In this document: positions 37,474 to 60,200 of the stretch, one piece after another
Position numbering within the stretch: position 1 is the first letter of the stretch
How the letters are laid out: each line of letters begins with the position of its first letter
Origin: Bdellovibrionales bacterium
GTDB taxonomy: Bacteria > Bdellovibrionota > Bdellovibrionia > Bdellovibrionales > UBA1609
NCBI GenBank assembly: GCA_965199825.1
Contig: OZ241329.1
Coordinates: forward strand, 160,001-224,000
Reading direction: 5' to 3'
DNA length: 64,000 nt
Notes under the pieces: generated by a model
Told to the model about the DNA's origin: nothing
Database searches by the model: none
The model's input: the letters and a program-made list of their open reading frames with translations, nothing else
Program-made: the position numbers and the translations under genes

Positions 37474-38643
37474 TTATACGACAGAAAAGTTTGGCAACTG
37501 GAGTTGCCTTTGTTTTGCCAAGTTTTGGGCCGCCACACTGTAGCCGCCGTCGCTCCCATCAATCAGATGGATATGGCCACCCTGGTTAAGATTTTCAACC
37601 AAACAGGTCATCAACGCATGCGACGAAACAAAAGTGCCGTAGAAAATTTCTCCCCGCTCGTACAAAACATGAAGAAGAGTTTCGACCGCCACAATTTCGT
37701 TCTTTGAGCAATCCAGCACCAAGCGCAATGTGTCGTCGTACTTTCGATAATCAGAATGGTTTGAAAGTCCATTGATATAGGCCTTGGCATCAAATGGAAC
37801 AGGTAAACCAAAACGAAATGCCCATTGGCACACCAAAATTTGGGTCAGTCGACCCAATGCCTGCATCGAAAATTTATTTTCGATCAATCTCCATTCTTTG
37901 CGAATCGATGCGAAGAAACCCTGATAACGAAAACTTTTTTGCGAAACTGGGTTGGCAATATCGAGATCGCCACCAAATATTTTTTTAAACTCTAAAAGTA
38001 AATTTTCAAAAATTTTTGTGCTGTCAAAAAGTCGGGGCTGTACAAGTAATGACAACATCTGCCCCCGTTGCGAGGCCAGCGGCTGCCAACGACAAGATAA
38101 GGAGTTTAATGCGAGCCCCGAAATTTCTTGAGCTGCTTTGATGCTGTATTTTCGTGGGCTGGATTTAATTGTGTATTCGGCCCAGGCAAGCCCACCCCCA
38201 CGAATAAAGGCGGTGCACTTTCCACTGGCGCCATCAAATTTTGCGACCTCGAGCTTTGATCCTGAACTTTTGATTTCTTGTACACTCACCACACCAACAC
38301 GAAGTTCGATATCAAATTGCTTGATACAAAACAGTTTGTATTGAGCCAATTTTTTTTTGATTTCATCGATCTGACTGGGAGCGATCAAAAAGCTTGCACC
38401 GTCGCCACCAAACACAAAGGCCAATTCGTCAGAGGGCATTACAGATTGGACAACCACAATTGCGCCCGCACCAATGGTGTTGACGTCGCGATATTTTCCT
38501 AAGGAAATATGCTGAGTCGATTTTTCGACATCACAGATCACCACGAACCAATCGTTTGGGACCTCAGTATAAATACGGTCTGTTGAGAGAAGATCAAAAT
38601 TAGAAAAAGATTTTAAATTTTTATAAAAATCATTAAGGCCCAA
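37474..38643 (-). CDS. DUF3095 family protein (nucleotide-cyclase-like); start uncertain
   Basis: WFVVICDVEKST, FVFGGDGAS, LSCRWQP, SDYRKYDDTLR, HLIDGSDGGY. Confidence 0.82.
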   Translation of the reverse strand: MGLNDFYKNLKSFSNFDLLSTDRIYTEVPNDWFVVICDVEKSTQHISLGKYRDVNTIGAGAIVVVQSVMPSDELAFVFGGDGASFLIAPSQIDEIKKKLAQYKLFCIKQFDIELRVGVVSVQEIKSSGSKLEVAKFDGASGKCTAFIRGGGLAWAEYTIKSSPRKYSIKAAQEISGLALNSLSCRWQPLASQRGQMLSLLVQPRLFDSTKIFENLLLEFKKIFGGDLDIANPVSQKSFRYQGFFASIRKEWRLIENKFSMQALGRLTQILVCQWAFRFGLPVPFDAKAYINGLSNHSDYRKYDDTLRLVLDCSKNEIVAVETLLHVLYERGEIFYGTFVSSHALMTCLVENLNQGGHIHLIDGSDGGYSVAAQNLAKQRQLQLPNFSVV

Positions 38644-41074
38644 CCGTTCCCCCGTATGCTGATCCGTTAGCAACTGGACTTCCTCCAACATACAAAGTTC
38701 CAGCCGATCCTGATGTGGATGTGTCTTGAGTGTGTACCGTGTTGCTATTTAAGGAAAGGCTAGAAGTGTAAAGGGAATAACCGCTAAGATAAATTGATCC
38801 AGCCGCTAAAACAAAGGGCGTATTGTTTGCGGTCACATCACTGGTCAAAACAACTTGTGAACTTAAATTGTTCACTGTTAGTGTTCCCGTCGGAACGTTG
38901 TTCGAATACACTGCACTAAAATTTTGCACTCCGCTGCCAACAAAGATTAAATTGCTTGAGCTCTGAATTGTGCCACCAATGCTGACATCTTTGGAAACCT
39001 GAATGGTTCCACCATTGAGGTATGGACCATAATTTCCACTGGTCAGAGCAAGATTTCCCGCCACATTTAGGGTTCCGCTCAAGCTTATTGCTGAGCAATA
39101 CGACCCGTCCACTGAGACATTGTTATAGATCTGGTTACCAGGATTGAAGGTGATGTAACCGGAGTTTAAATAACAACCGCCGAATTTGAGAGTGGACCCC
39201 GCAGCACTAATTGTTCCCGATGTGTAGGTAAACCCATCAGTCACTGCGACAGTTCCAGACAAAGTTGTGGTTCCTGAAGAAGCCACTTCTAAATTAGGGA
39301 AGGACCCATTTCCCGAAATGGTTTGGTTCACACCGATTGCGCGAACTAAACCACTTCCGCCATTGAGTGCATAACCCAAAAACGAGATATTGCCCTTCAC
39401 ATTGACGGTGCCACTATTCAATTTGGGAAAAAAATTACTTCCATCCACATTGAAGTCTCCATCGATTGCCCAAGTGTTCACAATGTCGGCCTGGCCTCCG
39501 TAGCTAAGATCAAGATGAACATTGTTAAATACATTATTTGCAACATCATACGTGTGAGCAACCGGCCCATTAGGAACATTGAATAAACAAGAATTATTTG
39601 TGAAAGTTGAATTTGCAAATGTCACACTCCCGCCAACCTGCAGAGTGCCACTCGACGCCTTGTAGCTCCCGCCTCTTACACGTAAATCCCTATTCATCGT
39701 GGTGTTAAATCCAGTTGCACCAATATAATTTCCTGAGAGCTGCACCCAGTCGGTTTCGATCGTGGAGGAGAAATTTCCCTGAGTGATTGTTCCTGAATAA
39801 TTTGAGGCCATGCGAACACCACCCACATCGATCGCCGAATCAATCGTTGGTGAACAATTAGAAACGCAAGTTCCATCAAACAAAGCGACAGCCGAAGAAT
39901 TCGGAGGGTTCCCTCCCGACCAGTTTGCTCCTACTCCCCACCCAGGAGTGCCACTCCCCCCTGTCCAAACAAAGGGGTTGGTCGTGATGTTTTCGGTTTG
40001 AGTGCCTGGGACATAACCCGACATTGCAGCTGTGACAGTGAGAGGTCCTGTGGACGATGGTAGAAAATAAAACGGTGCCGATGAAGTCGACCGAGCAGCT
40101 ATGGAAAGATTGCTTATCGAGTTGTTGCAATCCGAATCAGAATAAAATGAAAGACCTGACCCACTGAGATTCAAGGTCTGTGGACTTGCAGAAGTGACAT
40201 TGACACTCGCAGAAATGGCACCTGAGCATAAACCGTTCGCAACGGTTTGCGGTGCTCCAGTTAATTTCACCGCGGCAACTGGAGGTACAAAAATTCCGCA
40301 AGAGGTCCCAATACCAAAGAGCTGCTGCATTTGTGAAAGGGTAAGAGCCTGAGTGACTGACACCGCAACTTCGGCAATCGACCCGCCAAAATAATTACTT
40401 GAAGGCTGATTGGGCCAACTGCCGATGTTGTCGTATCCGATATGAAGATACCCAGTATAGTTCTGTCCAGTGGTCACAGAGTTTGTACTGACGTCACTTC
40501 CGTCGATACTTAAAAGCATACCGGAGGGTCCCATGCTTGCGGCCACCATGTGCCAATTGTTATCATTGTAAGTTAAGCTCGAGCTCAAAGTCGTAACGTT
40601 ACCATCGTACACGCCAAACAAAATGTTGCCATTGTTTGTCATATAGATGTGTCGATCATAGTTGCTGGAACTTATGATCCCATCTCCATAGCCGATTATT
40701 TTTCCACCATTTGTGGTCGATGTTTTAAACCACATGACAAAGCTAAATACGTTTGGCGCCTGATAGGCAGAAAATGTCGGAACAAAACTCGCTGACCCAT
40801 CCAATAAAATTGATTCGGACGGCATAACCAATGGCCCCGGCAGATGACGAATGATGGAATTGTAATAAAACCCTTGAGTTACTCCTAAGAGATCTGATGC
40901 AAAGGGTGGCGAAGGGTCTGAAAATCGCCAATAACTAGTAAATCCTAAAGAAGGGATAAGGCCTTGATAGGAGTTGCACACATTTTGTGAGAGGTTCAGG
41001 CTTGCGCCTGGTCCCGCATAAACAAATTGAGTTGATGTGAATAGGGCAAGCGCTATCAGTGATTTACGAAGCAT
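38633..41074 (-). CDS. Exported LamG/concanavalin-like plus beta-helix-like adhesin; partner of fibre C
   Basis: TAATG overlap with the fibre stop; signal peptide; YWRF, WFKT, YDRHIYM, NDNNWHMV; WTGG...NWSG then Gly/Asn/Ser-rich strands. Confidence 0.8.
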   Translation of the reverse strand: MLRKSLIALALFTSTQFVYAGPGASLNLSQNVCNSYQGLIPSLGFTSYWRFSDPSPPFASDLLGVTQGFYYNSIIRHLPGPLVMPSESILLDGSASFVPTFSAYQAPNVFSFVMWFKTSTTNGGKIIGYGDGIISSSNYDRHIYMTNNGNILFGVYDGNVTTLSSSLTYNDNNWHMVAASMGPSGMLLSIDGSDVSTNSVTTGQNYTGYLHIGYDNIGSWPNQPSSNYFGGSIAEVAVSVTQALTLSQMQQLFGIGTSCGIFVPPVAAVKLTGAPQTVANGLCSGAISASVNVTSASPQTLNLSGSGLSFYSDSDCNNSISNLSIAARSTSSAPFYFLPSSTGPLTVTAAMSGYVPGTQTENITTNPFVWTGGSGTPGWGVGANWSGGNPPNSSAVALFDGTCVSNCSPTIDSAIDVGGVRMASNYSGTITQGNFSSTIETDWVQLSGNYIGATGFNTTMNRDLRVRGGSYKASSGTLQVGGSVTFANSTFTNNSCLFNVPNGPVAHTYDVANNVFNNVHLDLSYGGQADIVNTWAIDGDFNVDGSNFFPKLNSGTVNVKGNISFLGYALNGGSGLVRAIGVNQTISGNGSFPNLEVASSGTTTLSGTVAVTDGFTYTSGTISAAGSTLKFGGCYLNSGYITFNPGNQIYNNVSVDGSYCSAISLSGTLNVAGNLALTSGNYGPYLNGGTIQVSKDVSIGGTIQSSSNLIFVGSGVQNFSAVYSNNVPTGTLTVNNLSSQVVLTSDVTANNTPFVLAAGSIYLSGYSLYTSSLSLNSNTVHTQDTSTSGSAGTLYVGGSPVANGSAYGGTVGP

Positions 41075-44000
41075 TAGGGCCAACCTGTGGACCATGAAAC
41101 ATAGCAATAACTGCCAACACGTTGAATATTATAAATAGAACCTGTTGCTGCTCGATTTGATGATACCGGCATCATCGATGTTGTTAAAGAAGTTGATCCA
41201 TTATCAGAATAACAATTTACAGTGGTTGTTCCAGCCGCAGATCCGCGCACGGCAACTGTATACGACCCACCATTAGTTAAATTGTTTATATTCAGAGTGA
41301 TGTTTGTTTGTGAACCAACATTCCACTCCAGCGCTGAATTCGAACTTGTATCAAACGTTAATGGCGAAGTTGCCGATGAACTGGTTGCTGTGGTAGTCGA
41401 TCCGCCTCCGCTTGCGGGAGTTGACCAAGATAAAACTCCGCTGCCGTTGGTGGTGAGCACTTGGTTTGCTGCTCCATCAGCGGTGGGCAATGTCCAAATT
41501 GTGTTTCCGGCATATGCGGCAGATTGAAAACCAGAATATCCATTTGCAGAGCCAGAAAGTCGCATTGTGCCTTTAACATCGAGAGCTGCACCCGGCGTTG
41601 TTGTGCCGATGCCTACGTTACCCGACGAATCAATCCGCATCCGTTCTTGGATACCAGTGCGATTATTTGCGGCGGTATGAAAGGCCAACGCACCGGCACG
41701 CCAATTGTTATCAAGGCCAGGCCCTGCATCCACCGCATCGATTGCTGCGAGTGAATCGACATTTCCACTGATGGTTAAGCCTGAAAATGTTAAGGCAGGA
41801 ACTCTCTGGCCAGTTTGAACACTCGCATTGTTATGAATATTTATTCCAATGACAGAGGTGTAAGCACTTGAATCCGAATTTGTACTCGTCACATTGACTT
41901 GCGGAACTCCAGCATAAAGAGGCGCATCGGGATATTCAAGTTGAACCCCACCCGACGTCCCAGACCAACTTCCGACTTGAAGTGCAGCCATGGGCGCAGT
42001 TGTTCCGATCCCTACATTGCCGTTGGCCAATATTCGAACTGCCTCTGAACCATTTGTTGATAAACCAATTGTGTTTGTAGCAGGCGAAAACATTCCGGTG
42101 TTTGTATTTCCATTAAATGCATAACCAGGAGCAGCGGCTGTTCCTGTAGATGCAGGTAATCCTCCGCTTGCTGAAGCCCATGAGGGAAGCCCACTTGCCA
42201 CAGTTAAAACTTGTCCGTTTGTGCCTGCAGGCAATCTTGAAAGTCCGGTGGTTGAAGAAGCGTAGAGTATGTCGCCGACTGAGTAAGAGGATTGCCCAGT
42301 TCCACCATTTGCAGCGGTGACGCTGCCGCTGATCTGCGATGATGGTAAACTAATATTTGTGCACGACATCACATCGCCCACAGAATTGTAAGTCAGAGTC
42401 TGATTACTCAAACAGGAATTTGCAAATTGATTGGTGCCCGTGACTGTGGATCGCAAATCTGTCATTGCGGTAAATCCAGGCGACCAAGCAGAACCATTCC
42501 ATCTTAGGGCTTGCCCTGCGGTTGTTGGTGCACTTGCGCTGACTGCACTTCCTTGAAGTTTGGTGACCGTGAACGCACCAGCGTCGGTCATTGTTGCATC
42601 ACCTGAAGGTGTGACCGCTGCGGCTGTTCCGCCGCTGTTACCAACGAGTATTTTGCCGTCGGCAAGTGTGTTACTCAATTTGTTATTAAAGGTTGTGTAG
42701 TCCGAATTTGAGAGGAGACCCGCAGTCACCGACGCTGCCGAAGCCATTGGAATATTTAATGTGTGGGTGCTTGATCCGCTTACGAATGCAGGAGTCGTTC
42801 CTGTCGTGCCCGTCGCAAAATTTTGCGAAGTGGTTGTTAAACCATTGAGCGACGATATTCCAGTCCCTGCAGGTGTCGACCATGCCAGCACTCCGCTGCC
42901 GTTGGTGGTGAGCACTTGATTGGCGCTACCATCGTTCGCAGGCAAGGTCCAAATGGTTGAGCCAGCTACAGCTGCGGGTTGAAATCCTGCGTAGCCGCTT
43001 GTTGATCCCAACATGCGAATCGATCCATTGACATCCAAAGCAGCGCCGGGAGTGGCGGTTCCAATGCCCACATTTCCACCTGCGGGATTGAGGGTGAGGG
43101 GAAATGATGTTCCATAGGTGTTGTGGGACTGAATCCACTGCGCGTAATTTGTTGATGCGGTTCCGAGTCCAAAACTCAATATTTGATTGCCTGATTCAAA
43201 TGACACTGCCCCAAGGCTTGATGCGCTCAACGACGGATCAGATGAGATCACAGCACCTTGTGTTCCAACCTGAAGACGAGCTCCTGGATTTGTTGATCCG
43301 ATACCGACGTTGCCATTCGCATCGATTCTCATCTGTTCTTTGTTGACCCCAGCACCAATTGAATTTCCGCTTGTTGAAAACAAGAGCGCCGTATTGTCAT
43401 CGGTATATCCTGGTTTTCTTTGTGCGGTGATGGAGGCCCATGTTGAACTGGTACTCGCAGCTGAGCTAAATGCAATCGTTCCAAGATTGGAATTGTCCGA
43501 TGGATTCGATTGCGAATCATGAAACCAAAATGTTGGAGCCGTAGCCGCAATATCTAATCGACCTTGTGGATTTGTTGTTCCAACCCCAATATTTCCGGAA
43601 CTGTCGATGCGCATCCGCTCAACAGAATTTGTTGAGAAGCCTAAAGTGGCGGTTGACGCGAGATACATTCCATCATTTGCTTCATTCGAAAATGAGTAAG
43701 AAGGCGCTGACGGACTTCCGTTACTTGCCAAAACAGAGGACGAAGTTTGAATGTAACCCACAACATCGAGTGGGCGCACTGGAGCAGTTGTGCCAATGCC
43801 CACATTTCCAAAAGCATCCATTCGCATGCGCTCTAAACCACCCGTACTCGCCGCAAGTGTCGAAGCCAAAGGCCTAAACCAGCCGGTGCCCGCATCGCCG
43901 GAAAAAGAATATGTTGGAGCTGCAGCAGTTCCTGCAGCAGAAGTCATATTTGCTCCACCGGTCACGGGCGAAACCATACCCGCGCTTGATAAATTAAATA

Positions 44001-46302
44001 TGTTTGTGCCTTCAGCTGCAATACCGATCACATCATTTGAGCCTGAGTCAAAAAATCCGGTGTTGGTGTCGCCCGAAAATGTCAACGACGGCGCGCTCGA
44101 GGATCCTGCACCCACTCCCACCGAACTGTAGCTACTCGTCCCGCCACTCAAAGGGATGGGTGTTCGTGTGGTGCCCACTGTTAAATAATAATTTGTCCCA
44201 TCGTACTCGACTGAACCATCTTCGGCAGTTGTGACTAAGGGACCAGCTGAAAATTTAAGAGGAGCAGCGCCCGCACTTGTCGTGCCCGCCTTCAATTGCA
44301 AAACAGCGCTAGGACTGGTCGTGCCCACTCCCACTTTTCCAGAAGGAAGAACAGTCAGACCAACCACATTATTTGCTTTTAACGAAAAACTTGTCGCATC
44401 GGTCGTGCCCACCGATGCGCTCACGCCAAACGCATTGCCACCATTTTTAAAATAAGTCGTGTCGTATCCCCCAGAAGGCAGATCACTCGAAGCCAAAGCA
44501 CGAAATGTTGCAGCACCGGCTCCACCGCTGGATGGACCCGCAAGTACCGCATTCTGCGCTTGCGACCCAAAGCTTGAAGCTCCAACCGAAATTGTGGCGC
44601 AAGAATATGTATCAGTCACAGCAGAGTAAGTCAGAGTTTGTGATGAGGTGCAATTGGTTGGAAACAGCGGAGCACTTCCGGCAAGCGAAGAGCGCAAATC
44701 GGCAACGCCTAAAAATGCCGGCGCATATTGTGTTGAGCCATCATAGCGGAGCACTTGTCCAGCCGATGTGGGAGTGCTCGAAGAAATTGGTGTCGATTGA
44801 ATTCCTGCGACTCGTGGAGCTGGATAATTTCCGGAAAGATCACCACTCGCGGCGCCCGTACTCCCAGTTGATGAAATCGTTATTAATCCCGCACCATTCG
44901 TAATCGCAACACCAGTCCCCGCGGTTAAACTGGCGGCAACAGGTGCAGCACCGGTTGAGCCCACAAAAACTTGACCGTTGGTCAAAGGTGAAGCTTCAAC
45001 AATTGCACCGCCACTCGATATCATCAAACGATTATTATTTAGAGCTACAGTCGAGTTGGTCCCCCCGTTGGCCACGGCTAATGTGCCCAACGACAAAACT
45101 CCAGATCCTGAGTTATAAATTAATGGCGCAGTTGCCGAAATTGATGCACGCGCATTGGTATCGCTGTAAGGAGTGGTCCAAGATAAAATTCCCGCAGTGG
45201 TGCTGGTCAAGACCTGACCGTTCGAAACTGGCGCAGCGGTTGGCCATGTTAATGTGTAAGAGGCAGACACCGTCGATGGAGCTTGCAGAGTTACCGAATT
45301 TGAGGCGCTATCGCGAGCAACAATTGAACTGGTCGAAACGCTGCTTGCCGAAAAACCACCCGATGAATCCCGCTTGACGATCATGCTGTTCGTATCAAGG
45401 GGTGTGGCCGCATTACTCAACAATTCTGCAGAGTGCACATTCGCAGCTGTTGATCCGCCAACACTCGACACGGTGGTCGCAGCGAGACTTCCAGTCACAT
45501 CACCCGAAAGCGATCCACTCGCGGTGCTTAAAACTTGGGTTGTAGAACCGTTATAATATTTGACCATGTTTGAGGTCGAATCGTACCAAACGCTTCCTGC
45601 AGCTGGCGATGTTGGTGGACTCGATGTGGAATAACTGGGAAGTGAAGCCCCACTTGATGTGGTTGATGAAACATAGTTTCCACCACCCGCAAGCAATGAA
45701 GTCAGCTTTGGGTAATTGGTATTTGAAAATACCGAAGACAAAGAAGTTTGATTGAGTTGTGTTGTGGAGTCAGCTTGAAGAATATTTCCGGTGGTGATGC
45801 CGTTTAAACTTTCGGCCACGAGTGCTGAGGGCACCGAATTCAATTTCATATCGGGTGACAGTGTCACTTGCACATTTGTGGACGAAGGTAAGACCACAAC
45901 TCTCAAATAGCGTTGATCTCCTGCGGTGGGCACATAAGTACAAGCAGCCCCATTGATGGCAGAGCGCCCATTGATAACGCTTAAATTTTGATAAACGCTT
46001 GCCATGTAATTGCCAGAATCAATCGACGAACGCTTCACATCCGTTGGGCTTGAGCCCACCGAAATATTGAAATACCCATTGCTCGAACTGGTGTTGATAT
46101 TTTGGGTTTCTTCATAAAGTATACAAGATTTGTTTGGATCTAAAACCTGGAGTCTTAAATTAACAGAATTATCTAAGAGCGGATTTGATCCACTTGAAGA
46201 ATTGTAGAGCCGGCCATCGAGGGTAAAGCTTTGTGAAGCTTCTCCTAGACCAAAAGACTGCGTGCTGATTAAAAAAATGAATAACCCAACAATACGTACC
46301 AC
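41074..46302 (-). CDS. Fibre C: phage-tail-fibre-like mosaic trimeric adhesin (MAT-like), 1742 aa, non-S74 C-terminal cap
   Basis: Signal peptide; DGRLYN/CILYEETQ N-domain; GDVTG; many GNVGIGTT repeats; ends QRVGSYCYVSWSTGWP. Confidence 0.85.
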   Translation of the reverse strand: MVRIVGLFIFLISTQSFGLGEASQSFTLDGRLYNSSSGSNPLLDNSVNLRLQVLDPNKSCILYEETQNINTSSSNGYFNISVGSSPTDVKRSSIDSGNYMASVYQNLSVINGRSAINGAACTYVPTAGDQRYLRVVVLPSSTNVQVTLSPDMKLNSVPSALVAESLNGITTGNILQADSTTQLNQTSLSSVFSNTNYPKLTSLLAGGGNYVSSTTSSGASLPSYSTSSPPTSPAAGSVWYDSTSNMVKYYNGSTTQVLSTASGSLSGDVTGSLAATTVSSVGGSTAANVHSAELLSNAATPLDTNSMIVKRDSSGGFSASSVSTSSIVARDSASNSVTLQAPSTVSASYTLTWPTAAPVSNGQVLTSTTAGILSWTTPYSDTNARASISATAPLIYNSGSGVLSLGTLAVANGGTNSTVALNNNRLMISSGGAIVEASPLTNGQVFVGSTGAAPVAASLTAGTGVAITNGAGLITISSTGSTGAASGDLSGNYPAPRVAGIQSTPISSSTPTSAGQVLRYDGSTQYAPAFLGVADLRSSLAGSAPLFPTNCTSSQTLTYSAVTDTYSCATISVGASSFGSQAQNAVLAGPSSGGAGAATFRALASSDLPSGGYDTTYFKNGGNAFGVSASVGTTDATSFSLKANNVVGLTVLPSGKVGVGTTSPSAVLQLKAGTTSAGAAPLKFSAGPLVTTAEDGSVEYDGTNYYLTVGTTRTPIPLSGGTSSYSSVGVGAGSSSAPSLTFSGDTNTGFFDSGSNDVIGIAAEGTNIFNLSSAGMVSPVTGGANMTSAAGTAAAPTYSFSGDAGTGWFRPLASTLAASTGGLERMRMDAFGNVGIGTTAPVRPLDVVGYIQTSSSVLASNGSPSAPSYSFSNEANDGMYLASTATLGFSTNSVERMRIDSSGNIGVGTTNPQGRLDIAATAPTFWFHDSQSNPSDNSNLGTIAFSSAASTSSTWASITAQRKPGYTDDNTALLFSTSGNSIGAGVNKEQMRIDANGNVGIGSTNPGARLQVGTQGAVISSDPSLSASSLGAVSFESGNQILSFGLGTASTNYAQWIQSHNTYGTSFPLTLNPAGGNVGIGTATPGAALDVNGSIRMLGSTSGYAGFQPAAVAGSTIWTLPANDGSANQVLTTNGSGVLAWSTPAGTGISSLNGLTTTSQNFATGTTGTTPAFVSGSSTHTLNIPMASAASVTAGLLSNSDYTTFNNKLSNTLADGKILVGNSGGTAAAVTPSGDATMTDAGAFTVTKLQGSAVSASAPTTAGQALRWNGSAWSPGFTAMTDLRSTVTGTNQFANSCLSNQTLTYNSVGDVMSCTNISLPSSQISGSVTAANGGTGQSSYSVGDILYASSTTGLSRLPAGTNGQVLTVASGLPSWASASGGLPASTGTAAAPGYAFNGNTNTGMFSPATNTIGLSTNGSEAVRILANGNVGIGTTAPMAALQVGSWSGTSGGVQLEYPDAPLYAGVPQVNVTSTNSDSSAYTSVIGINIHNNASVQTGQRVPALTFSGLTISGNVDSLAAIDAVDAGPGLDNNWRAGALAFHTAANNRTGIQERMRIDSSGNVGIGTTTPGAALDVKGTMRLSGSANGYSGFQSAAYAGNTIWTLPTADGAANQVLTTNGSGVLSWSTPASGGGSTTTATSSSATSPLTFDTSSNSALEWNVGSQTNITLNINNLTNGGSYTVAVRGSAAGTTTVNCYSDNGSTSLTTSMMPVSSNRAATGSIYNIQRVGSYCYVSWSTGWP
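42000..43050 (-). repeat. ~1.05-kb fibre shaft block, copy 1 (fibre C)
   Basis: Encodes LDVxGxIRM...WTLPANDG...FANSCLSNQTLTYNSVGDVMSC...GYAFxGNTNTGMF...GNVGIGTT; boundaries approximate. Confidence 0.85.
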
Positions 46303-46309
46303 GACTAAG

Positions 46310-51500: not shown

Positions 51501-54500
51501 TAACGGCTGTAGCTGTACCGCCGCTATTGCCGACAAATATTTTTCCATCAGCAAGAGTGCTGGTGAGTTTGTTTGTAAAGCTTGTGTAGTCCGTATTGCT
51601 GAGGAGACCCGCAGTCACCGAGGCTGATGATGCGAGAGGAATATTTAAGGTGTGAGTGCTCGTTGCAGAAACAAAAGCAGGTGCGGTACCGGTCGTGCCC
51701 GTTGCAAAATTTTGTGATGTTGAATTAAGGCCATTTAAGCTCGAGATGCCCGTGCCTGAAGGTGTCGACCAAGTGAGTATACCGCTACCATTTGTTGTCA
51801 AGGTTTGGTTCGCTGTACCATCGTTCGCAGGCAAGGTCCAAACAGTGCTGCCGGCTGCAGCCGCGGGTTGAAATCCTGTGTAGCCGCTTGTTGATCCCGA
51901 CATGCGGATTGCACCTTTAACGTCTAGGGCCGCGCCGGGTGATGTCGTGCCGATGCCGACATTGCCTTGAACTATCAATCCATCAGCTGGAGCAATCGTG
52001 TTATAGCCGTAGCCATTCCCACTGCCGACTGCGGCTCCGCTTGATGTCACCGAAAATCGAGCGGTTCCAGTCCCAGTACCACTTGAACCACTTCCATCTA
52101 CTAATACTCTAAAATTACCTTGATTCAATGCCATGATCGTTGATGGCCCTGTGCCAAGACGGTAAAATCCATCTGCTTTTACATATTCCGCATTAGCTCC
52201 GATGCTCACAGTGGGATCGAATGAATCGCCAGCAAAAAAATTCAGTGAGGAACTGTTGCTTCCGTTATTGAGCGACGCTGTTGGACCGCTGACGTAGAGA
52301 CCGCTGAGGCGTGCACTTCCAGAAACATCGAGACTATAAAGAGGCGTAGTCGTTCCGATTCCAACTTTGCCACTCGCAAGTATCCGCATCGCTTCTACAC
52401 CGTTGGTTGAAAATCCAACCGAATTTGTGATTGGAGAAAACATTCCGGTGTTCGTGTTGCCAACAAAAGCATATCCAGGAGCAGCGGCGGTTCCTGCAGC
52501 AGCAGGGAGGCCACTGACTGAAGCGGTCCAAGCAGGCAGTCCACTCGACACAGACAGCACTTGTCCGTTCGTGCCCGCAGGCAATCGCGAAAGCGCAGTG
52601 GTGGACGAAGCATAAAGCACATCGCCAACAGCATAAGTAGTCTGACCTGTTCCACCATTTGCGGGCGTGACTGATCCGGTGATTTGTGAAGAAGGTAAAC
52701 TGATATTTGTACACGACATCACATCGCCCACAGAATTGTAAGTTAGCGTTTGATTACTCAAACATGAATTTGCAAATTGGTTCGTGCCCGTCACTGTGGA
52801 CCGCAAATCTGTCATTGCGATAAAGCCGGGCGCCCAAGCAGAGCCGCTCCATCTTAAAGCTTGTCCTGCGGTGGTTGGTGCGGTTGCGCTCACAGGTGAT
52901 CCTTGAAGTTTTGCAACTGTGAATGCGCCGGTATCGGCCATTGTGACATCACCAGATGGTGTCACAGCGGTTGCAACGCTTGACCCGTTACCAACAAAAA
53001 TCTTTCCATCAGCAAGTATGCTGGTCAGTTTATTTGTGAAATTTGTGTAATCGGAATTTGAGAGGAGACCTGCAGTCACCGACGTCGTTGAGGCTAAAGG
53101 AATATTTAATGTGTGGGTACTTGTCGCACTGACGAATGCTGGTGCCGTTCCTGTCGTGCCCGTCGCAAAACTTTGTGAAGTTGATGTGAGTCCATTTAAG
53201 GAGGATAAGCCAGTACCTGCTGGTGTGGACCAAGTAAGTATTCCGCTCCCATTAGTTGTCAAAGTTTGGTTTGCTGTACCATCGTTCGCAGGCAAAGTCC
53301 AAACGGTGCCGCCTGCTGCGGCTGCGGGTTGAAAACCCGTGTAGCCGCTTGTCGATCCCGACATGCGGATCGCACCTTTGACGTCGAGAGGGGCGCCTGG
53401 TGTGGTTGTGCCGATGCCGACGTTACCGGCATTGGTCACCGTCATGCTGTATCCGCCACCTGAGCTTGCAGTTTGAAAGGTGTAATAGCTATTGCTAGTT
53501 CCAGAAGTTTCAACAAACAAACCTGTGTTGTAATTGGCACCTTTGCCTGATGAGCCTGCAGCAATGTGCAAACGTGCACCAGGATTAGTTGTTCCGATTC
53601 CTACACTGGCATTTGAACCATTGGTTGAGTTACCCGGCATAAGGATAATATTGCCGCCATTGTTTGATCCTCCAGCGCCTGCATTTTGAGAGTAAAGGTA
53701 AAGATTTCCGCCATCGGTACTTGCTGCTGCGGTTCCGGCGCGAACGTCGAATGCACCCTGCGGAGTTGTAGTTCCAATGCCGAAATTTCCGCCTTTGAAA
53801 AAAGTTGGAGTTCCTTGGCTTGCTGATATTTGAACATTGGTAGTTCCGTTCGCTCCAAGTGAAAATCGTCCCGTTGCACTGCCTTCATCAGTAAGCATTC
53901 CATAATTGGTTGCACCATTTGTAAGTGCAAACCCATCGAAAGCAGCGGATGTATTTAAGGTTAGCTTTGAAGAGGGATTTGTCGTCCCAATCCCAACATT
54001 CCCACCAAAAGCGTTGAGTACTAGAGGTCTGGTAGAAACTAAATATTTATCCGCCTGAATGTAGCCCGCATCAATGCTCATGTCATAACCCATGCGGAGT
54101 CCGTAATTGGCTCCTCCGCCTCCTGGATTACTCACCCGAAAACCACCTAACGAACTTGAATAAGATGCGGTGGAATCTTGAATTTCGGTTTTGGAAATTG
54201 GAGTTGTAGTTCCAATCCCCACATTCCCCGAAGCATCCACCCGCATTCGCTCTACACCACCCGTACTCGCCGCAAGAGTCGAAGCAAGTGGTCGAAACCA
54301 ACCCGTCCCCGCATCTCCCGCAAAAGAATACGTTGGAGCCGCAGCAGTTCCTGCAGCAGAAGTCACGGACGCTCCACCCGTCACAGGTGAAACCATCCCG
54401 GCCGAAGATAAATTAAATATGTTTGTACCACCGGCCGCCACACCGATCACATCATTCGAGCCTGAATCAAAAAATCCAGTATTAGTGTCGCCTGAAAATG

Positions 54501-56676
54501 TGAGCGAAGGTGCGCTTGAAGATCCCATACCTGCGCCAACAGTGCTGTAACTTGTAGCTCCACCGCTCAATGGAATCGGAGTTCTTGCTGTACCAACTGT
54601 TAAATAATAATTTGTACCATCGTACTCAATCGCGCCGTCTTCGGCTGTGGACATTAATGGACCACTAGTTAATTTGAGAGGAGCACTGCTTACGGCTGTT
54701 GTTCCCGCTTTGAGTTGCAAAACTGCAGAAGGTGTTGTTGTACCGATACCCACATTTCCGGTGGGACTTACAATCAGGCGTTCTCCGCCAGTATTATCGT
54801 AAATGTGAAGACCATATTGGTTGTTGTAGAGAGATCTCATCGCTCCAGTATCTCGAGGCATCAACTGTATTTCAGAACTGCCTCCGGATGTTCGAATGGG
54901 CCCGACAACTTCAAGAGGTGCAAGAGGATTGGTCGTCCCAATCCCAACACTTCCTGTAGGAAGCACCGTCATCGCAACATTATTATTTGCCTTTAACGAC
55001 AAAGGAAAATTATCCGCAGTACCGAGAGAAGCTGCAGCACCAAAACTATTTCCACCATTTTTAAAATAAGTGGTGTCATATGCACCAACAGGTAAATCAC
55101 TCGAAGCCAAAGGACGAAATGTAGGCGCACCCGCACCGCCCGAAGAAGGACCAGCAAGCACAGCGTTCTGTGCCTGGCTTCCAAAATTAGACGCTCCAAC
55201 CGAAATTGTGGCGCATGAAAATGTATCGCTCACTGCAGAGTAAGTTAAGGTTTGTGATGACGTGCAATTCGTAGGAAATAATTGAGCACTGCCCGCAAGC
55301 GAAGATCGCAAATCAGCAACGCCTAAAAATGCGGGAGCATATTGAGAAGACCCATTATATCGCAGAACTTGGCCACCCGCGGTTGGCGTTGCCGAAGATA
55401 CAGGCGTCCCCTGCAATCCCGAAACTTTTGGACTGGGATAATTGGCTGACAAATCTCCAGAGGCTGCACCATTGAGACTCAAAACTCCCGAGCTGTAACT
55501 TAAAGGTGCGGTTGCAGAAATCGCTGCTCTCGCATTGGCATCACTATATGGTGTAGTCCACGACAACACGCCCGCCGTTGTCCCCGTCAAAACCTGTCCG
55601 TTTGAAACTGGTGCAGCGGTTGGCCATGTTAAAGTGTACGACGCCGACACTGTCGAAGGCGCTTGAAGAGTGACCGAATTCGATGCGCCGTCGCGAGCAA
55701 CAATCGAACTTGTCGAAACACTGCCTGCCGAAAATCCACCGGAAGAATCTCGACGAACAATCATATTGTTGGTGTTATTTGAAGTTGCCGAATTGGCCAA
55801 CAGCTCAGCCGCATGAACATTCGAAGCCGATGAGCCACCCACCGTTGCAACCGTAGTCGCACTCAAAGTTCCGGTGACATCACCTGAAAGTGCGCCGGTT
55901 GCTGAACTTAAAACTTGAGTGGTTGATCCATTAAAATATTTTACTGTGCCTGAGGTCGAATCAAACCAGACACTTCCGGCAAGGGGGGATGCCGGTGGGG
56001 TGGAAGTTGAAAAACTGGGAAGTGATGCTCCACTTGATGTGGTTGATGAAACATAGTTTCCACCACCCGCGAGCAGTGATGTCAGCTTTGGATAATTGGT
56101 ATTTGAAAATACCGACGACAAACTCGATTGATTAAGCTGTGTTGTCGAATCGGCTTGGAGAATATTTCCGGTAGAGATTCCATTTAAACTTTCGGCCACC
56201 ACTGCCGAAGGCACCGAATTTAATTTCATATCGGGCGCAAGTGTCACTTGCACATTGGTTGAAGACGGAAGAACAACCACACGCAAAAATCTTTGATCTC
56301 CAGCGACAGGCAAATAGCTACAAGCTCCACCACTGGTGACCGAACGACCATTGATGGTGCTCAAGTTTTGAAAAACCCCGGCCATGTAATTGCCAGAGTC
56401 GATGCTTGTACGTTTTGAATCTGTGGTTGCAGAGCCGACCGAGATATTAAAATATCCATTACTGGCACTGGTGCTGACGTTTTGAGTCTCTTCATAAAGT
56501 ATACAATTTTTGTTTGTATCAAGAATCTGAAGACGAAGATTGACCGAGTTGTCTAATAAAGGGTTTGATCCGACCGAAGAATTATACAATCGTCCATCAA
56601 GTGTAAAGCCTTGTGGTCCCTCACTTAAACCAAATGAGTTTATACAATAAAAAACGAAAAGAATAAAACGTGTCAC
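48568..56676 (-). CDS. Fibre B: mosaic tail-fibre-like adhesin (MAT-like), 2702 aa, non-S74 C-terminal cap
   Basis: Same N-domain as fibre C; three shaft blocks; ends QRIGTTVYVSWIAGFQ. Confidence 0.87.
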   Translation of the reverse strand: MTRFILFVFYCINSFGLSEGPQGFTLDGRLYNSSVGSNPLLDNSVNLRLQILDTNKNCILYEETQNVSTSASNGYFNISVGSATTDSKRTSIDSGNYMAGVFQNLSTINGRSVTSGGACSYLPVAGDQRFLRVVVLPSSTNVQVTLAPDMKLNSVPSAVVAESLNGISTGNILQADSTTQLNQSSLSSVFSNTNYPKLTSLLAGGGNYVSSTTSSGASLPSFSTSTPPASPLAGSVWFDSTSGTVKYFNGSTTQVLSSATGALSGDVTGTLSATTVATVGGSSASNVHAAELLANSATSNNTNNMIVRRDSSGGFSAGSVSTSSIVARDGASNSVTLQAPSTVSASYTLTWPTAAPVSNGQVLTGTTAGVLSWTTPYSDANARAAISATAPLSYSSGVLSLNGAASGDLSANYPSPKVSGLQGTPVSSATPTAGGQVLRYNGSSQYAPAFLGVADLRSSLAGSAQLFPTNCTSSQTLTYSAVSDTFSCATISVGASNFGSQAQNAVLAGPSSGGAGAPTFRPLASSDLPVGAYDTTYFKNGGNSFGAAASLGTADNFPLSLKANNNVAMTVLPTGSVGIGTTNPLAPLEVVGPIRTSGGSSEIQLMPRDTGAMRSLYNNQYGLHIYDNTGGERLIVSPTGNVGIGTTTPSAVLQLKAGTTAVSSAPLKLTSGPLMSTAEDGAIEYDGTNYYLTVGTARTPIPLSGGATSYSTVGAGMGSSSAPSLTFSGDTNTGFFDSGSNDVIGVAAGGTNIFNLSSAGMVSPVTGGASVTSAAGTAAAPTYSFAGDAGTGWFRPLASTLAASTGGVERMRVDASGNVGIGTTTPISKTEIQDSTASYSSSLGGFRVSNPGGGGANYGLRMGYDMSIDAGYIQADKYLVSTRPLVLNAFGGNVGIGTTNPSSKLTLNTSAAFDGFALTNGATNYGMLTDEGSATGRFSLGANGTTNVQISASQGTPTFFKGGNFGIGTTTPQGAFDVRAGTAAASTDGGNLYLYSQNAGAGGSNNGGNIILMPGNSTNGSNASVGIGTTNPGARLHIAAGSSGKGANYNTGLFVETSGTSNSYYTFQTASSGGGYSMTVTNAGNVGIGTTTPGAPLDVKGAIRMSGSTSGYTGFQPAAAAGGTVWTLPANDGTANQTLTTNGSGILTWSTPAGTGLSSLNGLTSTSQSFATGTTGTAPAFVSATSTHTLNIPLASTTSVTAGLLSNSDYTNFTNKLTSILADGKIFVGNGSSVATAVTPSGDVTMADTGAFTVAKLQGSPVSATAPTTAGQALRWSGSAWAPGFIAMTDLRSTVTGTNQFANSCLSNQTLTYNSVGDVMSCTNISLPSSQITGSVTPANGGTGQTTYAVGDVLYASSTTALSRLPAGTNGQVLSVSSGLPAWTASVSGLPAAAGTAAAPGYAFVGNTNTGMFSPITNSVGFSTNGVEAMRILASGKVGIGTTTPLYSLDVSGSARLSGLYVSGPTASLNNGSNSSSLNFFAGDSFDPTVSIGANAEYVKADGFYRLGTGPSTIMALNQGNFRVLVDGSGSSGTGTGTARFSVTSSGAAVGSGNGYGYNTIAPADGLIVQGNVGIGTTSPGAALDVKGAIRMSGSTSGYTGFQPAAAAGSTVWTLPANDGTANQTLTTNGSGILTWSTPSGTGISSLNGLNSTSQNFATGTTGTAPAFVSATSTHTLNIPLASSASVTAGLLSNTDYTSFTNKLTSTLADGKIFVGNSGGTATAVTPSGDVTMADTGALTVAKMQGSAVSATAPTTAGQALRWSGSSWSPGFIAMTDLRSTVTGTNQFANSCLSNQTLTYNSVGDVMACTNISLPSSQLTGSITPANGGTGQTIYAVGDVLYASSTTALSRLPAGTNGQVLTVASGLPSWASSGGGLPASAGTAAAPGYAFSGNTNTGMFSPATNTIGLSTNGAEVVRVTASGQVGIGTTAPAQALDIVGNARVSGSVIIPTGGTFSTLYGNGDTMLQSSILNYATSLNIYPSGTANYSSIALFNNSGGGTNQAQIIETTNGLQVGTYNSLPLTLQTNNTARMTVDASGNVGIGTTSPGARLQVGTQGVVISSDPSLSASNLGAVSFESGNQILSFGLGTGSTNYAQWIQSHNAYGSSFPLVLNAAGGNVGIGTATPGAALDVNGAIRMSGSTSGYTGFQPAAVAGSTIWTLPANDGSANQVLTTNGSGVLAWSTPAGTGISSLNGLTTTSQTFATGTTGTAPSFTSATSTHTLNIPLASTALVTAGLLSNSDYTTFTNKLTSTLADGKIFVGNSGGTAAAVTPSGDATMTDAGAFTVGKLQGTTVSATAPTTAGQALRWSGSAWAPGFIAMTDLRSKVTGTNQFASSCLNNQTLTYNSVGDVMSCANISLPTSQITGSVATANGGTGQSNYAVGDLLYASSTSALSRLPAGANGQVLTLASGIPSWSAASGGGGLPAAPGTAAAPGYAFLGNTNTGMFGADTNTIGLATNGAEAMRILPSGSVGIGTTAPLGGLHVVGPGGATAIIQSSTAATDLKIGGQTDQTAVVEVYRTTNTLANNPSDYERLTFGFNQYSGVGSDAFIGTEKNGSGSSRALMFLMSGSELMRLHTNGNVGIGTTNPQAALEVRGQTRSTGSGGATKINSSSSVDWNNGNAQSMSVACTNTTFANMLDGGTYILAVTETTATQCVFAQSGLTFLYSPANGSRSAGQQTVYSFQRIGTTVYVSWIAGFQ
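49245..50300 (-). repeat. ~1.05-kb shaft block, copy 2 (fibre B)
   Basis: Same translated block; boundaries approximate. Confidence 0.85.
50890..51940 (-). repeat. ~1.05-kb shaft block, copy 3 (fibre B)
   Basis: Same translated block; boundaries approximate. Confidence 0.85.
52350..53400 (-). repeat. ~1.05-kb shaft block, copy 4 (fibre B)
   Basis: Same translated block; boundaries approximate. Confidence 0.85.
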
Positions 56677-56683
56677 GTCTAAC

Positions 56684-56710
56684 TTATCGACAATTTTTTG
56701 GTATTATTAA
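56684..56710 (-). promoter_or_regulatory. sigma28 (FliA)-like promoter of fibre B
   Basis: TTAA-N15-GTCGATAA ending 7 nt before the GTG start; no SD. Confidence 0.6.
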
Positions 56711-56779
56711 GCAGTTCAGTTCGAACTCATAAAAACACGTCCAAAGGTCTTGATACGACAAGACGATGGTCAAGCCCAT

Positions 56780-57230
56780 TTATTTTGAACGAAACGAAGC
56801 CATGACCATGTCATAACAACTTGCGGGCGAAAACGTATTCACAATTAAAGTTGAACCCATATTATTTTGAATTTTATATTCAACAGTATTTCCGTTTTGT
56901 GTCGAAATTGATGTAAATGGTCCACTTGGCGTCGCGTGTTGAAATGCGTTGATGTAAAAAAAGATCATCGCTTTGTTTTCATTCTCAACCAGTCATGAAG
57001 CAAACGAAATGTCATTCGCCGCATTAAAATAACCGTTGCTGCACTTGTACAAAGGTTTTGAGTCTCATATTCGATAAAAAAATTTTTGTCTGTATCAAAA
57101 ATCTGTAAACGCAGATTAACAGGATTATCTAGTAATGGGTTTGGCCCTGAAGAGGAGATGTTAAAGCATTCATCAAATATAATTTTTTGCAGCACATCAA
57201 ATAAACACAAATAGTTTATAAGCAGTAATG
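56780..57230 (-). pseudogene. Decayed remnant of another fibre gene 5' end joined to an unrelated short 3' fragment
   Basis: SSGPNPLLDNPVNLRLQIFDTDKNFFIEYETQN matches the fibre N-terminus GSNPLLDNSVNLRLQILDTNKNCILYEETQN, then frameshifts near 57040. Confidence 0.75.
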
Positions 57231-57269
57231 TTAGGGCAATTAAGACACCATCAATTAACCCTAGAGAAA

Positions 57270-60200
57270 TTAATTGCAGAATGGGGCGTTCGAATCTTTA
57301 GCGCAAAGATAAGCTTTTAGCTTTTCATTTTCAGCTTTCAGCGCCGCGATCTCACGCTCTTCACTTTTAAACTTCGCATAGAGCTCTTTAACAGCGTTAA
57401 CAATAGTCCAAATAATAGAATCATTCGTAAGATGCAAAAAGCCTTTATCGTCAGTACTCACCGCTTCGGGAATTACCTTAAGTGCATCTTGGGCTTTTAC
57501 TCCAACAAATTCTTTATCAGATGGAAGCTGCAAAGGATTATTATTTTTGTATTTAAAATAAATTGTGTTTAATCCATTGAGAGCATCAAGCCCTCGAGTG
57601 AATGGAGCACGAATCTCTTTTAGACGCTCGTCAGATGCAATTGTCCATGTGCTGGTGCCAGGTTTTGCTGCTGAGTCGGTACCAAGCTGAAGTAAGTATG
57701 TTGGATTTGTTGTACCAATCCCAACTTTTCCAGAACCGCTTGGTTTTATGATAATGTTTTGACTAGTAGAATTGTTAAAACCCGAAGTGATGAATAAATC
57801 TTGGCCTGTAGGAGACGTGATAGACTGATGTAGAATATTGCTATCATATCCCATTGCTATGTTACCGTTGAAATCTATATTGCCATACTCGTCGAGACGA
57901 AAGTAATTTCCATTTGAGGCTTCAACTTTAAATCCCGGAACTCCACTGTTGTAGGGGTAAACAACATGAAGCTTAGCACTCGGCGCACTTGTACCAATGC
58001 CAACGTTGCCAGTTGTTGCGTCGATTCGCATCTTCTCGATGCCAGCCTGTTGAAATAGCAATGGAACATTCAAAGTGTATGTATTTATAAAAGTGTTTGG
58101 AGAGGTGGTAGAGCCTTGAGAACCAACTCGTAAGGTTGCTCCATAAGAAGAAAATGATGTTTGTGCACTTCCCGCGGTATTTAAATTTTCAATCGTTTCT
58201 TGAATAACACTTCCGCTATTTCCAGAGACGTGGAACAAGCTGTTCGGCGCCGTTGTTCCAATCCCAACATTACCGCCCGAAGAATTGATCGCAAGTGGCG
58301 CAGGGCCCACCGCCCCATAGAATGCCCTGATCTCACCGTATCCTGAATTCGAGTTCGTACCATGTGCAAACATCGCAATATTAGCGTTGCCACCGCCAGT
58401 AACTCCTGACCCGTCCGCCGATGTTGCGATAATCCCATTGGCGTTATCCGCGACGATATTGCCGTTGACCTCTAGTGAATTGAGCGGATTTGTTGTGCCG
58501 ATACCAACGTTGCCTGCGTCGGTAATACGCAAGCGCTCGTTATTGCCACCGCCGACGTTAAAAGCGAGATCACTCACAGCACCGCTAGGATTAAGCAAAA
58601 TGTTGCGAATCGTGGCCGTCGCACCATAAGTGTTGGCAGTTGAAAAAATAAGATCGGCTTCGTTGCCGGCTGCCTGTGTTGCCGAGTTGACCAAAGCTAG
58701 AGCATTTGTGGCGCCTCCGGAATTCGATTTGCCAAATGAAACAAGTGGAGAATACGCAGGTAGCGAAGTCGAACTTGATCCGACTTGGAAAGCAAATGAC
58801 GGTGATGTTGTCCCGATGCCGACGGCGCCATTCGCTAGAACTCGCATCGCCTCAACTCCATTCGTTGATAAACCAACTTGATTTGTAGCGGGTGAAAAGA
58901 TACCTGTATTTGTATTACCTGAAAATGCATATCCCGGAGCTGCAGCGGATCCTGCCGAAGCAGGTAAGCCTCCACTCGCCGATGCCCACGAAGGCATTCC
59001 ACTTGAAACCGTTAAGACTTGTCCGTTCGTGCCCGCAGGAAGTCGTGAAAGCGCAGTCGTCGATGAAGCATAAAGCACATCCCCAACTGCGTAGCTAGTT
59101 TGCCCTGTTCCACCATTCGTAGGCGTCACACTGCCGGTGATTTGTGAGGATGGTAAACTAATATTTGTGCACGACATGACGTCGCCCACAGAATTGTAGG
59201 TCAAAGTTTGATTGCTCAAACATGAATTTGCGAATTGATTTGTGCCGGTCACCGTTGAACGAAGATCAGTGATTGCAATAAAATTCGGCGTCCATGCAGA
59301 GCCACTCCATCTGAGTGCTTGCCCCGCAGTTGTAGGTGATGTCGCACTCACAGGCGATCCTTGAAGTTTTGCAACCGTAAATGCACCGCTGTCACTTATT
59401 GTTGCATCGCCTGAAGGTGTGACTGCTGTTGCTGCTCCGCCGCTGTTGCCGACAAAGATTTTTCCATCAGCAAGAGCGCTGGTGAGTTTATTTGTGAATG
59501 TTGTGTAATCGGTATTACTGAGGAGACCCGCAGTCACCGAGGTTGCTGAAGCTAACGGAATATTTAATGTGTGAATACTTATTCCACTCACGAAAGCGGG
59601 AGCTGTTCCTGTTGTGCCCGTTGCAAAACTTTGTGATGTCGCAGTTAACCCATTTAAGCTTGTTATTCCAGTTCCTGCAGGAGTTGACCATGCGAGTATT
59701 CCACTACCGTTTGTAGTAAGAACTTGGTTTGCGCTACCATCGTTCACAGGTAAAGTCCAAACTGTGCTACCCGCAGCAGCTGCGGGTTGAAATCCTGTGT
59801 AGCCGCTGGTTGATCCCGACATGCGGATCGCACCTTTGACGTCAAGAAGAGCTCCGGGATTTGTTGTTCCGATACCAACTTTCCCGCTAACACTTGGCTT
59901 TAAAATAATATTGTAACCTGTAACAGTGTTTCCAAGTCCAGAGGTGATATATGTGTTTCCTGCGGAGGTAAACGCAGCGCTGTTTACATTACTGTCATAA
60001 GGAGCCAAGGTAAGATTAGATCCTGCTCCGCCATTAACAAAAAGTTGACCAGCGCTATCGACATAAAGATTCGATGTGCCATCACTAGCTTGCCATTCCT
60101 GAAGATTCCCAGTTTGGCTTGCGGCTCCTTGTATCACCAAGCCCTTATTAGCGACCGCACCGGTATTAAGAAAAAGCTGAGCTGTGATGTCCGTCGTTAC

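What the first reader, a model, noticed from the sequence alone, without database searches (positions are those of the whole stretch)
38633..57635. Candidate two-gene fibre plus exchangeable tip-adhesin system: non-S74 fibres share a cap domain and each has a coupled exported partner
Seen: fibre A ends in an S74 chaperone and has no intact partner gene after it. Fibres B and C lack S74 and end in a related ~90-aa domain (NMLDGGTYILAV...YSFQRIGTTVYVSWIAGFQ vs NLTNGGSYTVAV...YNIQRVGSYCYVSWSTGWP). Each is followed at once (4-nt gap; TAATG overlap) by a signal-peptide protein with a different binding-type fold: a 12-repeat NHL propeller whose mature N-terminus is QIPFGFFK, or a LamG plus beta-helix protein. 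Known: Bdellovibrio MAT fibres are prey-recognition trimers, many matured by S74, and some T-even phage fibres carry a separately encoded tip adhesin (gp38 on gp37). Inference: the cap is a docking socket for the partner's N-terminus, giving a modular prey-recognition tip. I do not recall this being described for predator fibres.
Basis: partly seen in the sequence, partly recalled or inferred. Interest (0 to 1): 0.82.

Follow-up and report, generated by a model that had tools for sequence, protein, structure and literature searches.

The report
Fibre socket with tagged swappable heads
Surface fibres of Bdellovibrio-like predatory bacteria, and some viral fibre-like genes, end in one small conserved domain and come with unrelated binding-type proteins that all start with the same short aromatic tag, so the domain is likely a socket into which separately made, exchangeable heads would plug.

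Summary
Observation confirmed and much extended. Fibres B and C are MAT-type fibres ending in a ~95-aa cap (predicted XD1/T4-gp9 beta-sandwich). All 5 cap fibres of this genome are followed within -4..+10 nt by a signal-peptide gene; its 6 S74 fibres are not. The cap occurs in 144 of 301 genomes of the order. 73 of 121 terminal caps have an adjacent Sec/Tat-type gene, against 5 of 25 S74 proteins (non-fibre neighbours). The partner bodies are unrelated (NHL, Kelch, RCC1, LamG, Gly-rich), but a de novo search finds a shared mature N-terminal tag (Q-h-h-P-F-G/A/S-F-W-K; B's partner: QIPFGFFK). Tagged genes also lie in trans, almost only in cap-bearing genomes. One genome has 20 stand-alone tagged genes for 4 cap fibres. 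In viral contigs the tag follows Met directly, with no signal peptide, behind cap-ended genes. Best reading (0.7): tag-in-socket docking of exchangeable heads. Binding is not shown. C's own partner has a divergent N-terminus. Not found in the papers searched. New variant of MAT fibres that likely works like gp37-gp38 but is not of that family.

The parts
57270..63977 (-). Fibre A, MAT-type, S74-ended; 3' part only (start at window position 64787, outside the window); comparison case without a partner
57459..57635 (-). S74 chaperone/autoprotease domain of fibre A (SDERLK at 57635)
   Evidence: Pfam PF13884 E 2e-8
57023..57143 (-). Decayed fibre 5' remnant
   Evidence: 76% to the start of B; phmmer E 1.6e-11
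56565..56989 (-). Remnant: 88% copy of the 3' end of the upstream tagged partner gene, its spacer and the fibre start; trace of a tandem duplication
   Evidence: blastn
48568..56676 (-). Fibre B, 2702 aa: signal-peptide-like start, MAT-type N-terminal domain, repeated shaft, C-terminal cap
48571..48858 (-). Cap B (aa 2607-2702), predicted XD1/gp9-type beta-sandwich; proposed socket
46485..48563 (-). Partner of B, 692 aa: signal peptide, tag, 11 full NHL repeats plus a partial twelfth (probably two beta-propellers)
48468..48491 (-). Tag QIPFGFFK (aa 25-32), predicted mature N-terminus
41074..46302 (-). Fibre C, 1742 aa, MAT-type, cap-ended
41077..41364 (-). Cap C (aa 1647-1742), divergent cap subtype (46% to the cap in L018)
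38633..41074 (-). Partner of C, 813 aa: signal peptide, divergent N-terminus without the canonical tag, LamG (about 40358-40762), C-terminal beta-solenoid-like region (38636-39967) whose homologues are mostly tagged by eye

Best explanation
The cap-ended fibres and their tagged partner proteins likely form a two-part adhesin, in which the C-terminal cap of the likely trimeric fibre is predicted to act as a socket and the short aromatic tag that would be exposed at the partner's N-terminus after signal-peptide removal likely plugs into it, so that one fibre would display separately encoded, exchangeable binding heads. Shown here: the cap family, its terminal position, the coupling of genes, the tag, the unrelated bodies, the trans copies and the signal-less viral form. 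Inferred: trimer formation and surface display (from MAT fibres, PMC10769870), Sec/Tat export and cleavage (sequence heuristic), cap-tag binding, and prey or surface binding by the heads. Caps also occur inside fibres or ahead of a further domain, so the tag more likely binds a side or inter-subunit groove, up to three per trimer, than across the threefold axis (inference).
For: Own genome: 5 of 5 cap fibres are coupled to a signal-peptide gene and 0 of 6 S74 fibres to a non-fibre partner. Order: 73 of 121 against 5 of 25 (Fisher p 3e-4, overstated because kin are not independent); held-out 24 of 30. De novo motif: score >=8 bits in 42 of 73 partners (leave-one-out), 2.2% of 1460 shuffles, 21 of 1273 export-like ORFs of this genome, and 0 of 8 genes after S74. 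The tag sits right after AxA-type sites with both Sec- and Tat-type signals. 44 tagged bodies fall into 22 homology clusters and many Pfam folds. Tag similarity rises with cap identity among pairs with non-homologous bodies (rho 0.16; 8 of 300 permutations as high), while the signal and post-tag segments show none. Tag-profile hits lie in 34 of 112 cap-positive against 5 of 157 cap-negative genomes after removing the 32 training genomes (tallied by hand). Caps without a neighbour have tagged genes convergently, as second gene or elsewhere. G167 has 20 stand-alone hits, 19 of the [IL]PF-x-F-[WFM] type, for 4 cap fibres. In viral contigs, 5 of 19 gene starts M-x(2-3)-PFAF that have an upstream gene follow a cap-ended gene and have no signal peptide. 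Homologues of the body of C's partner, found without reference to cap or tag, are tagged in 19 of 29 by eye and 6 of 29 by the ungapped score.
Against: 48 of 121 terminal caps have no adjacent exported gene and are as conserved as the others; partner presence is scattered over the quick cap tree. The fold is XD1-like, and XD1 is described as a spacer in TSP4/gp9/gp10 and as a glycan-binding fold in CpaA and StcE (PMC8825819, passages). The closest solved fold, the Pa223 capsid-spike knob, is described without a bound partner (bioRxiv 2025.06.11.659172, passages). C's partner and two other partners in this genome score low for the tag. Cap-tag co-variation is modest and could come from linkage. 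About five of the 42 motif hits (L134, L136, L149, L103, L116) look spurious. The loci were drawn from the best-scoring matches.
Confidence: 0.7

Rival explanations
1. The cap is itself the binding tip (a glycan-binding XD1/CpaA/StcE-type domain). The tag is a sorting or anchoring signal read by other machinery, and the partner genes are merely co-transcribed.
For: The fold is shared with the CpaA and StcE domains (Z 5.3 and 4.1; glycan binding per PMC8825819). The solved NS74 MAT tips are stand-alone binding domains (PMC10769870). 40% of caps lack a neighbour. Many tagged genes are far from any cap.
Against: Tagged genes are nearly confined to cap-bearing genomes. The tag does not follow S74 fibres, which use the same envelope. 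In viral contigs the tag has no signal peptide yet still follows the cap gene. Tag type tracks cap type.
Confidence: 0.14
2. The tag binds the fibre, but elsewhere than the cap (shaft or MAT N-terminal domain), or it binds a shared third protein that travels with cap fibres.
For: The genomic data cannot place the binding site. A crystal contact in Bd2133 shows that MAT domains can hold short peptides (PMC10769870).
Against: S74 fibres share the N-terminal domain and shaft motifs but lack tagged partners. In the two viral cases viewed (248-aa L276 gene; L407 3' part) the cap is the only evident common element.
Confidence: 0.1
3. The partner is a trans-acting folding chaperone that replaces the missing S74 domain, as T4 gp38 or Tfa proteins do.
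For: Partners follow only non-S74 fibres and are translationally coupled.
Against: The bodies are 130 to over 900 aa, mutually unrelated and of binding-type folds. One genome holds about 20 of them for 4 cap fibres.
Confidence: 0.06

Closest known systems
Bdellovibrio bacteriovorus MAT (mosaic adhesive trimer) fibres, non-S74 group, especially Bd0726 (Caulton et al. 2024, PMC10769870)
   Same: Signal peptide, conserved N-terminal domain, G-N-V-G-I-G shaft motif with sequence hits to Bd2133, Bd2439 and Bd1334, S74 or non-S74 ends. Supplementary Table S1 lists the tip of Bd0726 as similar to TSP4 XD1, the fold predicted for this cap. A named B. bacteriovorus Bd5 record has a cap fibre followed by a tagged NHL protein.
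   Different: The paper treats each tip as the binding domain of a single-gene fibre; its main text has no operon or partner-gene discussion. None of the five solved NS74 tips matches the cap beyond the shared shaft motif. That Bd0726 is a cap fibre is inferred; its sequence was not fetched.
T-even long tail fibre tip gp37(3)-gp38 (phage S16, PDB 6F45; PMC6851490 passages)
   Same: A separately encoded, variable adhesin is held on the fibre tip by N-terminal aromatic residues in hydrophobic pockets. Some partners here carry Gly-rich domains (PF21722/PF12810; their likeness to the gp38 polyglycine sandwich is recalled, not tested).
   Different: gp37 ends in a beta-helix and gp38 docks through three Trp on a helical domain, one per trimer. 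Here the socket is a predicted XD1 beta-sandwich, the plug is a linear tag of about 8-10 aa, the bodies belong to many unrelated folds, they are Sec/Tat-type proteins, and many are encoded in trans.
XD1 / T4 gp9-gp10 domain fold (CBA120 TSP4 XD1, Pa223 capsid-spike knob, CpaA and StcE domains); Pfam 38 PF26209 Phage_phiTE_241_C-like phage fibre C-termini
   Same: VIA-align: 9ny6 Z 8.2 (rmsd 2.7, 93 aligned), 24qj Z 6.9, 9f4a Z 6.8, 7rfv Z 6.6. 146 predicted viral structures at E<=1e-3, many annotated as fibres. Atlas clusters at 0.96-0.97, partly PF26209.
   Different: XD1 is described as a spacer, with docking assigned to XD2/XD3 jelly rolls and trimeric partners. No N-terminal peptide ligand is described for it in the passages read.

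Membership tests
MAT fibres | Signal peptide followed by the conserved ~130-aa N-terminal domain | tested here: inconclusive
   A shared N-terminal domain is present in B, C, A and three more fibres, and a similar-looking one in a named B. bacteriovorus fibre; not aligned to the HD100 N-terminal domain itself
MAT fibres | Beta-helix shaft with the V-G-G/N capping-loop (GNVGIG) motif | tested here: met
   phmmer hits to Bd2133 (E 1.4e-6) and Bd2439 (E 4e-4) through this motif
MAT fibres | Variable C-terminal tip, S74 or non-S74 | tested here: met
   A has S74; B and C have the cap
MAT fibres | Homotrimer displayed on the predator surface | not testable with these tools
   Inferred from PMC10769870
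T-even gp37-gp38 adhesin tip | Separate adhesin gene directly after the fibre gene | tested here: met
T-even gp37-gp38 adhesin tip | gp37-type beta-helix tip and helical gp38 attachment domain with three Trp | tested here: not met
   The cap model is an all-beta sandwich matching XD1, and the tag is a short linear motif directly followed by unrelated domains
T-even gp37-gp38 adhesin tip | Physical attachment of the adhesin to the fibre tip | not testable with these tools
   Needs a binding assay or a solved structure
XD1 / gp9-type domain fold | Mixed beta-sandwich superposable on TSP4 residues 80-178 and the matching gp9/gp10 domain | tested here: met
   Top five VIA rows are all phage spike, tailspike or baseplate proteins, Z 6.2-8.2, rmsd 2.7-3.1, 81-93 aligned; Foldseek gp9 prob 0.87 but E 0.15; Z is middling, so same fold, not shown function
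Pfam PF26209 Phage_phiTE_241_C | HMM match over the curated cut-off | not testable with these tools
   Family absent from the Pfam copy held; Atlas feature likeness only, 47% and 12% of cluster members

The most novel reading that the evidence does not exclude
A general 'one socket, many heads' adhesin system shared by phages and predatory bacteria: an XD1-fold cap on a fibre binds a ~10-residue N-terminal tag, and a genome keeps a dispersed library of tagged lectin-like or propeller heads (20 hits for 4 fibres in G167) that are loaded combinatorially at the protein level, setting prey or host range without changing the fibre gene.
Probability: 0.4. Interest if true: 0.92.

Novelty: new variant of a known kind. 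Interest (0 to 1): 0.82.

Why it matters
How Bdellovibrio-like predators recognise many different prey is a long-standing question, and MAT tips are so far treated as single-gene devices. A socket-and-tag layer would add a second, larger set of recognition proteins that can now be listed from a 10-residue signature. It would explain an uncharacterised MAT tip of the model species (the XD1-like one) and give a function to a very common unannotated C-terminal domain (1518 clusters at 50% identity; 146 viral structural matches). It is directly testable in B. bacteriovorus, where the fibre-NHL pair is present. A natural peptide-socket pair would also be a usable surface-display tool.

Tried and rejected
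Complex prediction of cap B x3 (123-row alignment) with the first 45 mature residues of B's partner gave no verdict (0.02, mark 0.32), which counts neither way. A loose regular expression for the tag was dropped because it matched 246 of 1191 background ORFs; it was replaced by the de novo profile. The script stopped on an error in its last line after printing the figures used. Pfam, PHROGs and PDB sequence searches gave no family for the cap. tblastn of two caps against GenBank phages found nothing significant. No column separates caps with a neighbour from caps without one. The careful tree did not finish; the quick tree was used. A second group of five viral upstream domains (L264, L274, L286, L308, L316) resembles the cap by eye but scored only 17.8% probability against the first viral group (four aligned) and is not counted. 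Cap V of this genome is missed by the profile built without own rows and scores only with profiles that contain it. No orphan tagged gene stood out in this genome. The phiTE cryo-EM paper does not mention gp241. The chaperone reading was considered and given low odds.
Full report
Locus. The window is G000:C1:160001-224000. On the minus strand it holds the 3' part of fibre A, fibre B (2702 aa), a 692-aa NHL protein, fibre C (1742 aa) and an 813-aa LamG protein.

The cap. B and C end in ~95-aa domains that are 27% identical. A profile built without this genome's rows finds caps B, C, Z and W (E 1e-39 to 1e-14), but not the divergent cap V and no S74 fibre. A five-row profile matched 1518 of 1.84 billion cluster representatives at E<=1e-3; in the 150 listed, 148 of the 149 re-detected caps are terminal. 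The cap was found in 144 of 301 genomes of the order and in 36 of 201 of the phylum sample, 10 of them outside the order. It has no Pfam, PHROG or PDB sequence family in the copies held. The AF2 model (pLDDT 92) is a beta-sandwich whose best structural matches are the Pa223 capsid-spike knob (Z 8.2), a tailspike domain (6.9), a KP1 baseplate protein (6.8; gp10-like by my reading) and TSP4 XD1 (6.6). Foldseek adds T4 gp9 at a non-significant E and 146 predicted viral proteins, many of them fibres. The Atlas points to PF26209-like phage fibre C-termini.

Coupling. In this genome all 5 cap fibres are followed within -4..+10 nt by a signal-peptide gene. The 6 S74 fibres are followed by another fibre or by nothing. 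I inspected 123 cap-bearing frames: 18 and 105 from the top-scoring of about 300 matches, after dropping 5 duplicate loci. 121 caps are terminal; 73 of these have an export-like gene starting within 80 nt and 48 do not. Of 30 S74 loci, 25 could be located; 8 have such a gene, 3 of them the next fibre. Of 30 held-out caps, 24 have one (six of the 30 are near-copies of one locus type). Export signals were called with a hydropathy/RR heuristic.

The tag. Gibbs sampling on the N-termini of the 73 partners gave Q-h-h-[PS]-[FG]-[SAG]-F-W-[KQ]. It sits right after AxA-type sites of Sec- and Tat-type signals. Leave-one-out scores of 8 bits or more: 42 of 73 (about five look spurious), against 2.2% of shuffles, 21 of 1273 export-like ORFs of this genome and 0 of 8 genes after S74; held-out 9 of 24, more by eye because the ungapped profile misses one-residue shifts. 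51 of the 73 partners were scanned with Pfam: NHL, SBBP, Kelch, RCC1, DUF5122, LamG, PA14, Gly-rich, DUF285, GLUG, TSP1 and Ig hits, and many with none. 44 tagged bodies form 22 BLAST clusters. Among 894 pairs with non-homologous bodies, tag similarity correlates with cap identity (rho 0.16, 8 of 300 permutations as high), while the signal (-0.04) and post-tag (0.00) segments do not. B's closest caps (75% and 66% identical) carry QFIPFGFFK and SQIPFGFFK on different bodies. C's partner lacks the canonical tag, but its N-terminus resembles that of the partner of the cap nearest to C (L018), and 19 of 29 homologues of its C-terminal region start with signal plus tag by eye (6 of 29 by score).

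Partners in trans. Caps without a neighbour are as conserved as the rest and are scattered over the tree. In five genomes that have such caps the tag profile found tagged genes convergent to the fibre, as the second gene, or elsewhere. Over the order sample, 66 of 301 genomes hit the tag profile, 61 of them cap-positive; without the 32 training genomes this is 34 of 112 against 5 of 157, and within the largest family 27 of 79 against 4 of 32 (hand tally; tests; kin are not independent). Of three exceptions re-searched, one has a weak cap hit and two incomplete genomes have none. G167 has 20 hits, 19 with nearly the same tag on RCC1, Gly-rich, LamG and unannotated bodies, with no cap hit in the fetched regions (about 700 nt upstream), while it has 5 strong cap domains on 4 fibres, one of them internal.

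Viral form. 5 of those upstream genes end in the cap (E 4e-8 to 6e-5 among the 19; profile-profile probability 96%, not independent as they were picked with the same profile), 5 end in a weakly similar domain, 5 look like terminase-portal junctions and 4 are unrelated. These tagged proteins have no signal peptide. This is the main argument against the tag being a cell-envelope sorting signal, and it points to a phage origin (direction not tested; the contigs are predicted viral).

Mechanism and rivals. The simplest account is that the tag plugs into the cap (0.7). Against it stand the description of XD1 as a spacer or glycan binder, the Pa223 knob described without a partner, and the 40% of caps without a neighbour. 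Rivals are a stand-alone glycan-binding cap with a sorting tag (0.14), binding elsewhere on the fibre or through a third protein (0.10), and a chaperone role (0.06).

What is known. PMC10769870: parts 2-4 of 8 of the main text, a term search of the whole main text, part 4 of 7 of supplement 1 and two supplement searches; supplement file 2 could not be read. It lists Bd0726 with an XD1-like tip and has no partner-gene text. A named B. bacteriovorus Bd5 record carries a cap fibre plus a tagged NHL protein. PMC8825819, PMC6851490, PMC13689555, PMC11972413 and bioRxiv 2025.06.11.659172 were seen as passages; other papers only as search listings. Searches for bd0725-bd0728, Bdellovibrio with MAT, fibre, NHL and adhesin, tag strings and tip terms and Bdellovibrionota with tail fiber, adhesin and secreted partner found no description of this system; subscription papers are not covered. 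Two earlier notes of this scan reached the same idea in other genomes; they are not independent evidence.

Verdict. A real, widespread feature. The fibres are MAT-type; the cap-tag pairing is a new variant that likely works like gp37-gp38 without belonging to that family. Interest 0.82.

Noticed in passing
G000:C1:224891-240933 (L001), just upstream of the window: The array continues with S74 fibre Y, cap fibre Z and Z's tagged 233-aa partner (GVIPAAMWK); five fibres in tandem in all.
   Followed up: yes
L020, L241, L248, L253, L255, L258, L259: Caps ending C-Y-[VI]-T-W-x-[ST]-[GD] go with partners whose N-termini are poor in aromatic residues (such as LTAMIG, QMTGLL, NQMLG), several followed by LamG-like sequence: a possible second tag subtype.
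   Followed up: partly
L151 (G167:C12:345292-346896); L016; L160: One fibre has an internal and a terminal cap; two caps are followed by 119-169 further residues. This suggests side-on rather than axial binding.
   Followed up: partly
L067, L075, L076, L114, L118, L125: A TPR/glycosyltransferase-looking gene (read by eye) directly follows the cap fibre; in L067, L075 and L076 the tagged gene comes next.
   Followed up: partly
L008, L064, L083, L098, L107: A clade of caps without a neighbour lies before an oligopeptide-transporter-looking gene (by eye); two such genomes searched hold tagged genes elsewhere.
   Followed up: partly
L027, L032: Two S74 proteins have an exported, untagged, non-fibre gene overlapping their stop (-4 nt).
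   Followed up: no
L186 (G133:C1:156577): A tag-like stretch (QSIPFGSW) lies inside a 1607-aa frame, not at an N-terminus.
   Followed up: no
L276: In this viral contig the 248-aa cap protein has a signal-peptide-like start while its tagged RCC1-like partner has none.
   Followed up: no
window 41074-63977: The shafts of A, B and C repeat a long module (SGYxGFQ...TGTNQFA...GYAFxGN) in one (C), two (A, within the window) and three (B) copies, read by eye.
   Followed up: no
window 37474-38691: A DUF3095 gene starts at or overlaps the 3' end of C's partner; no link to the system was tested.
   Followed up: no
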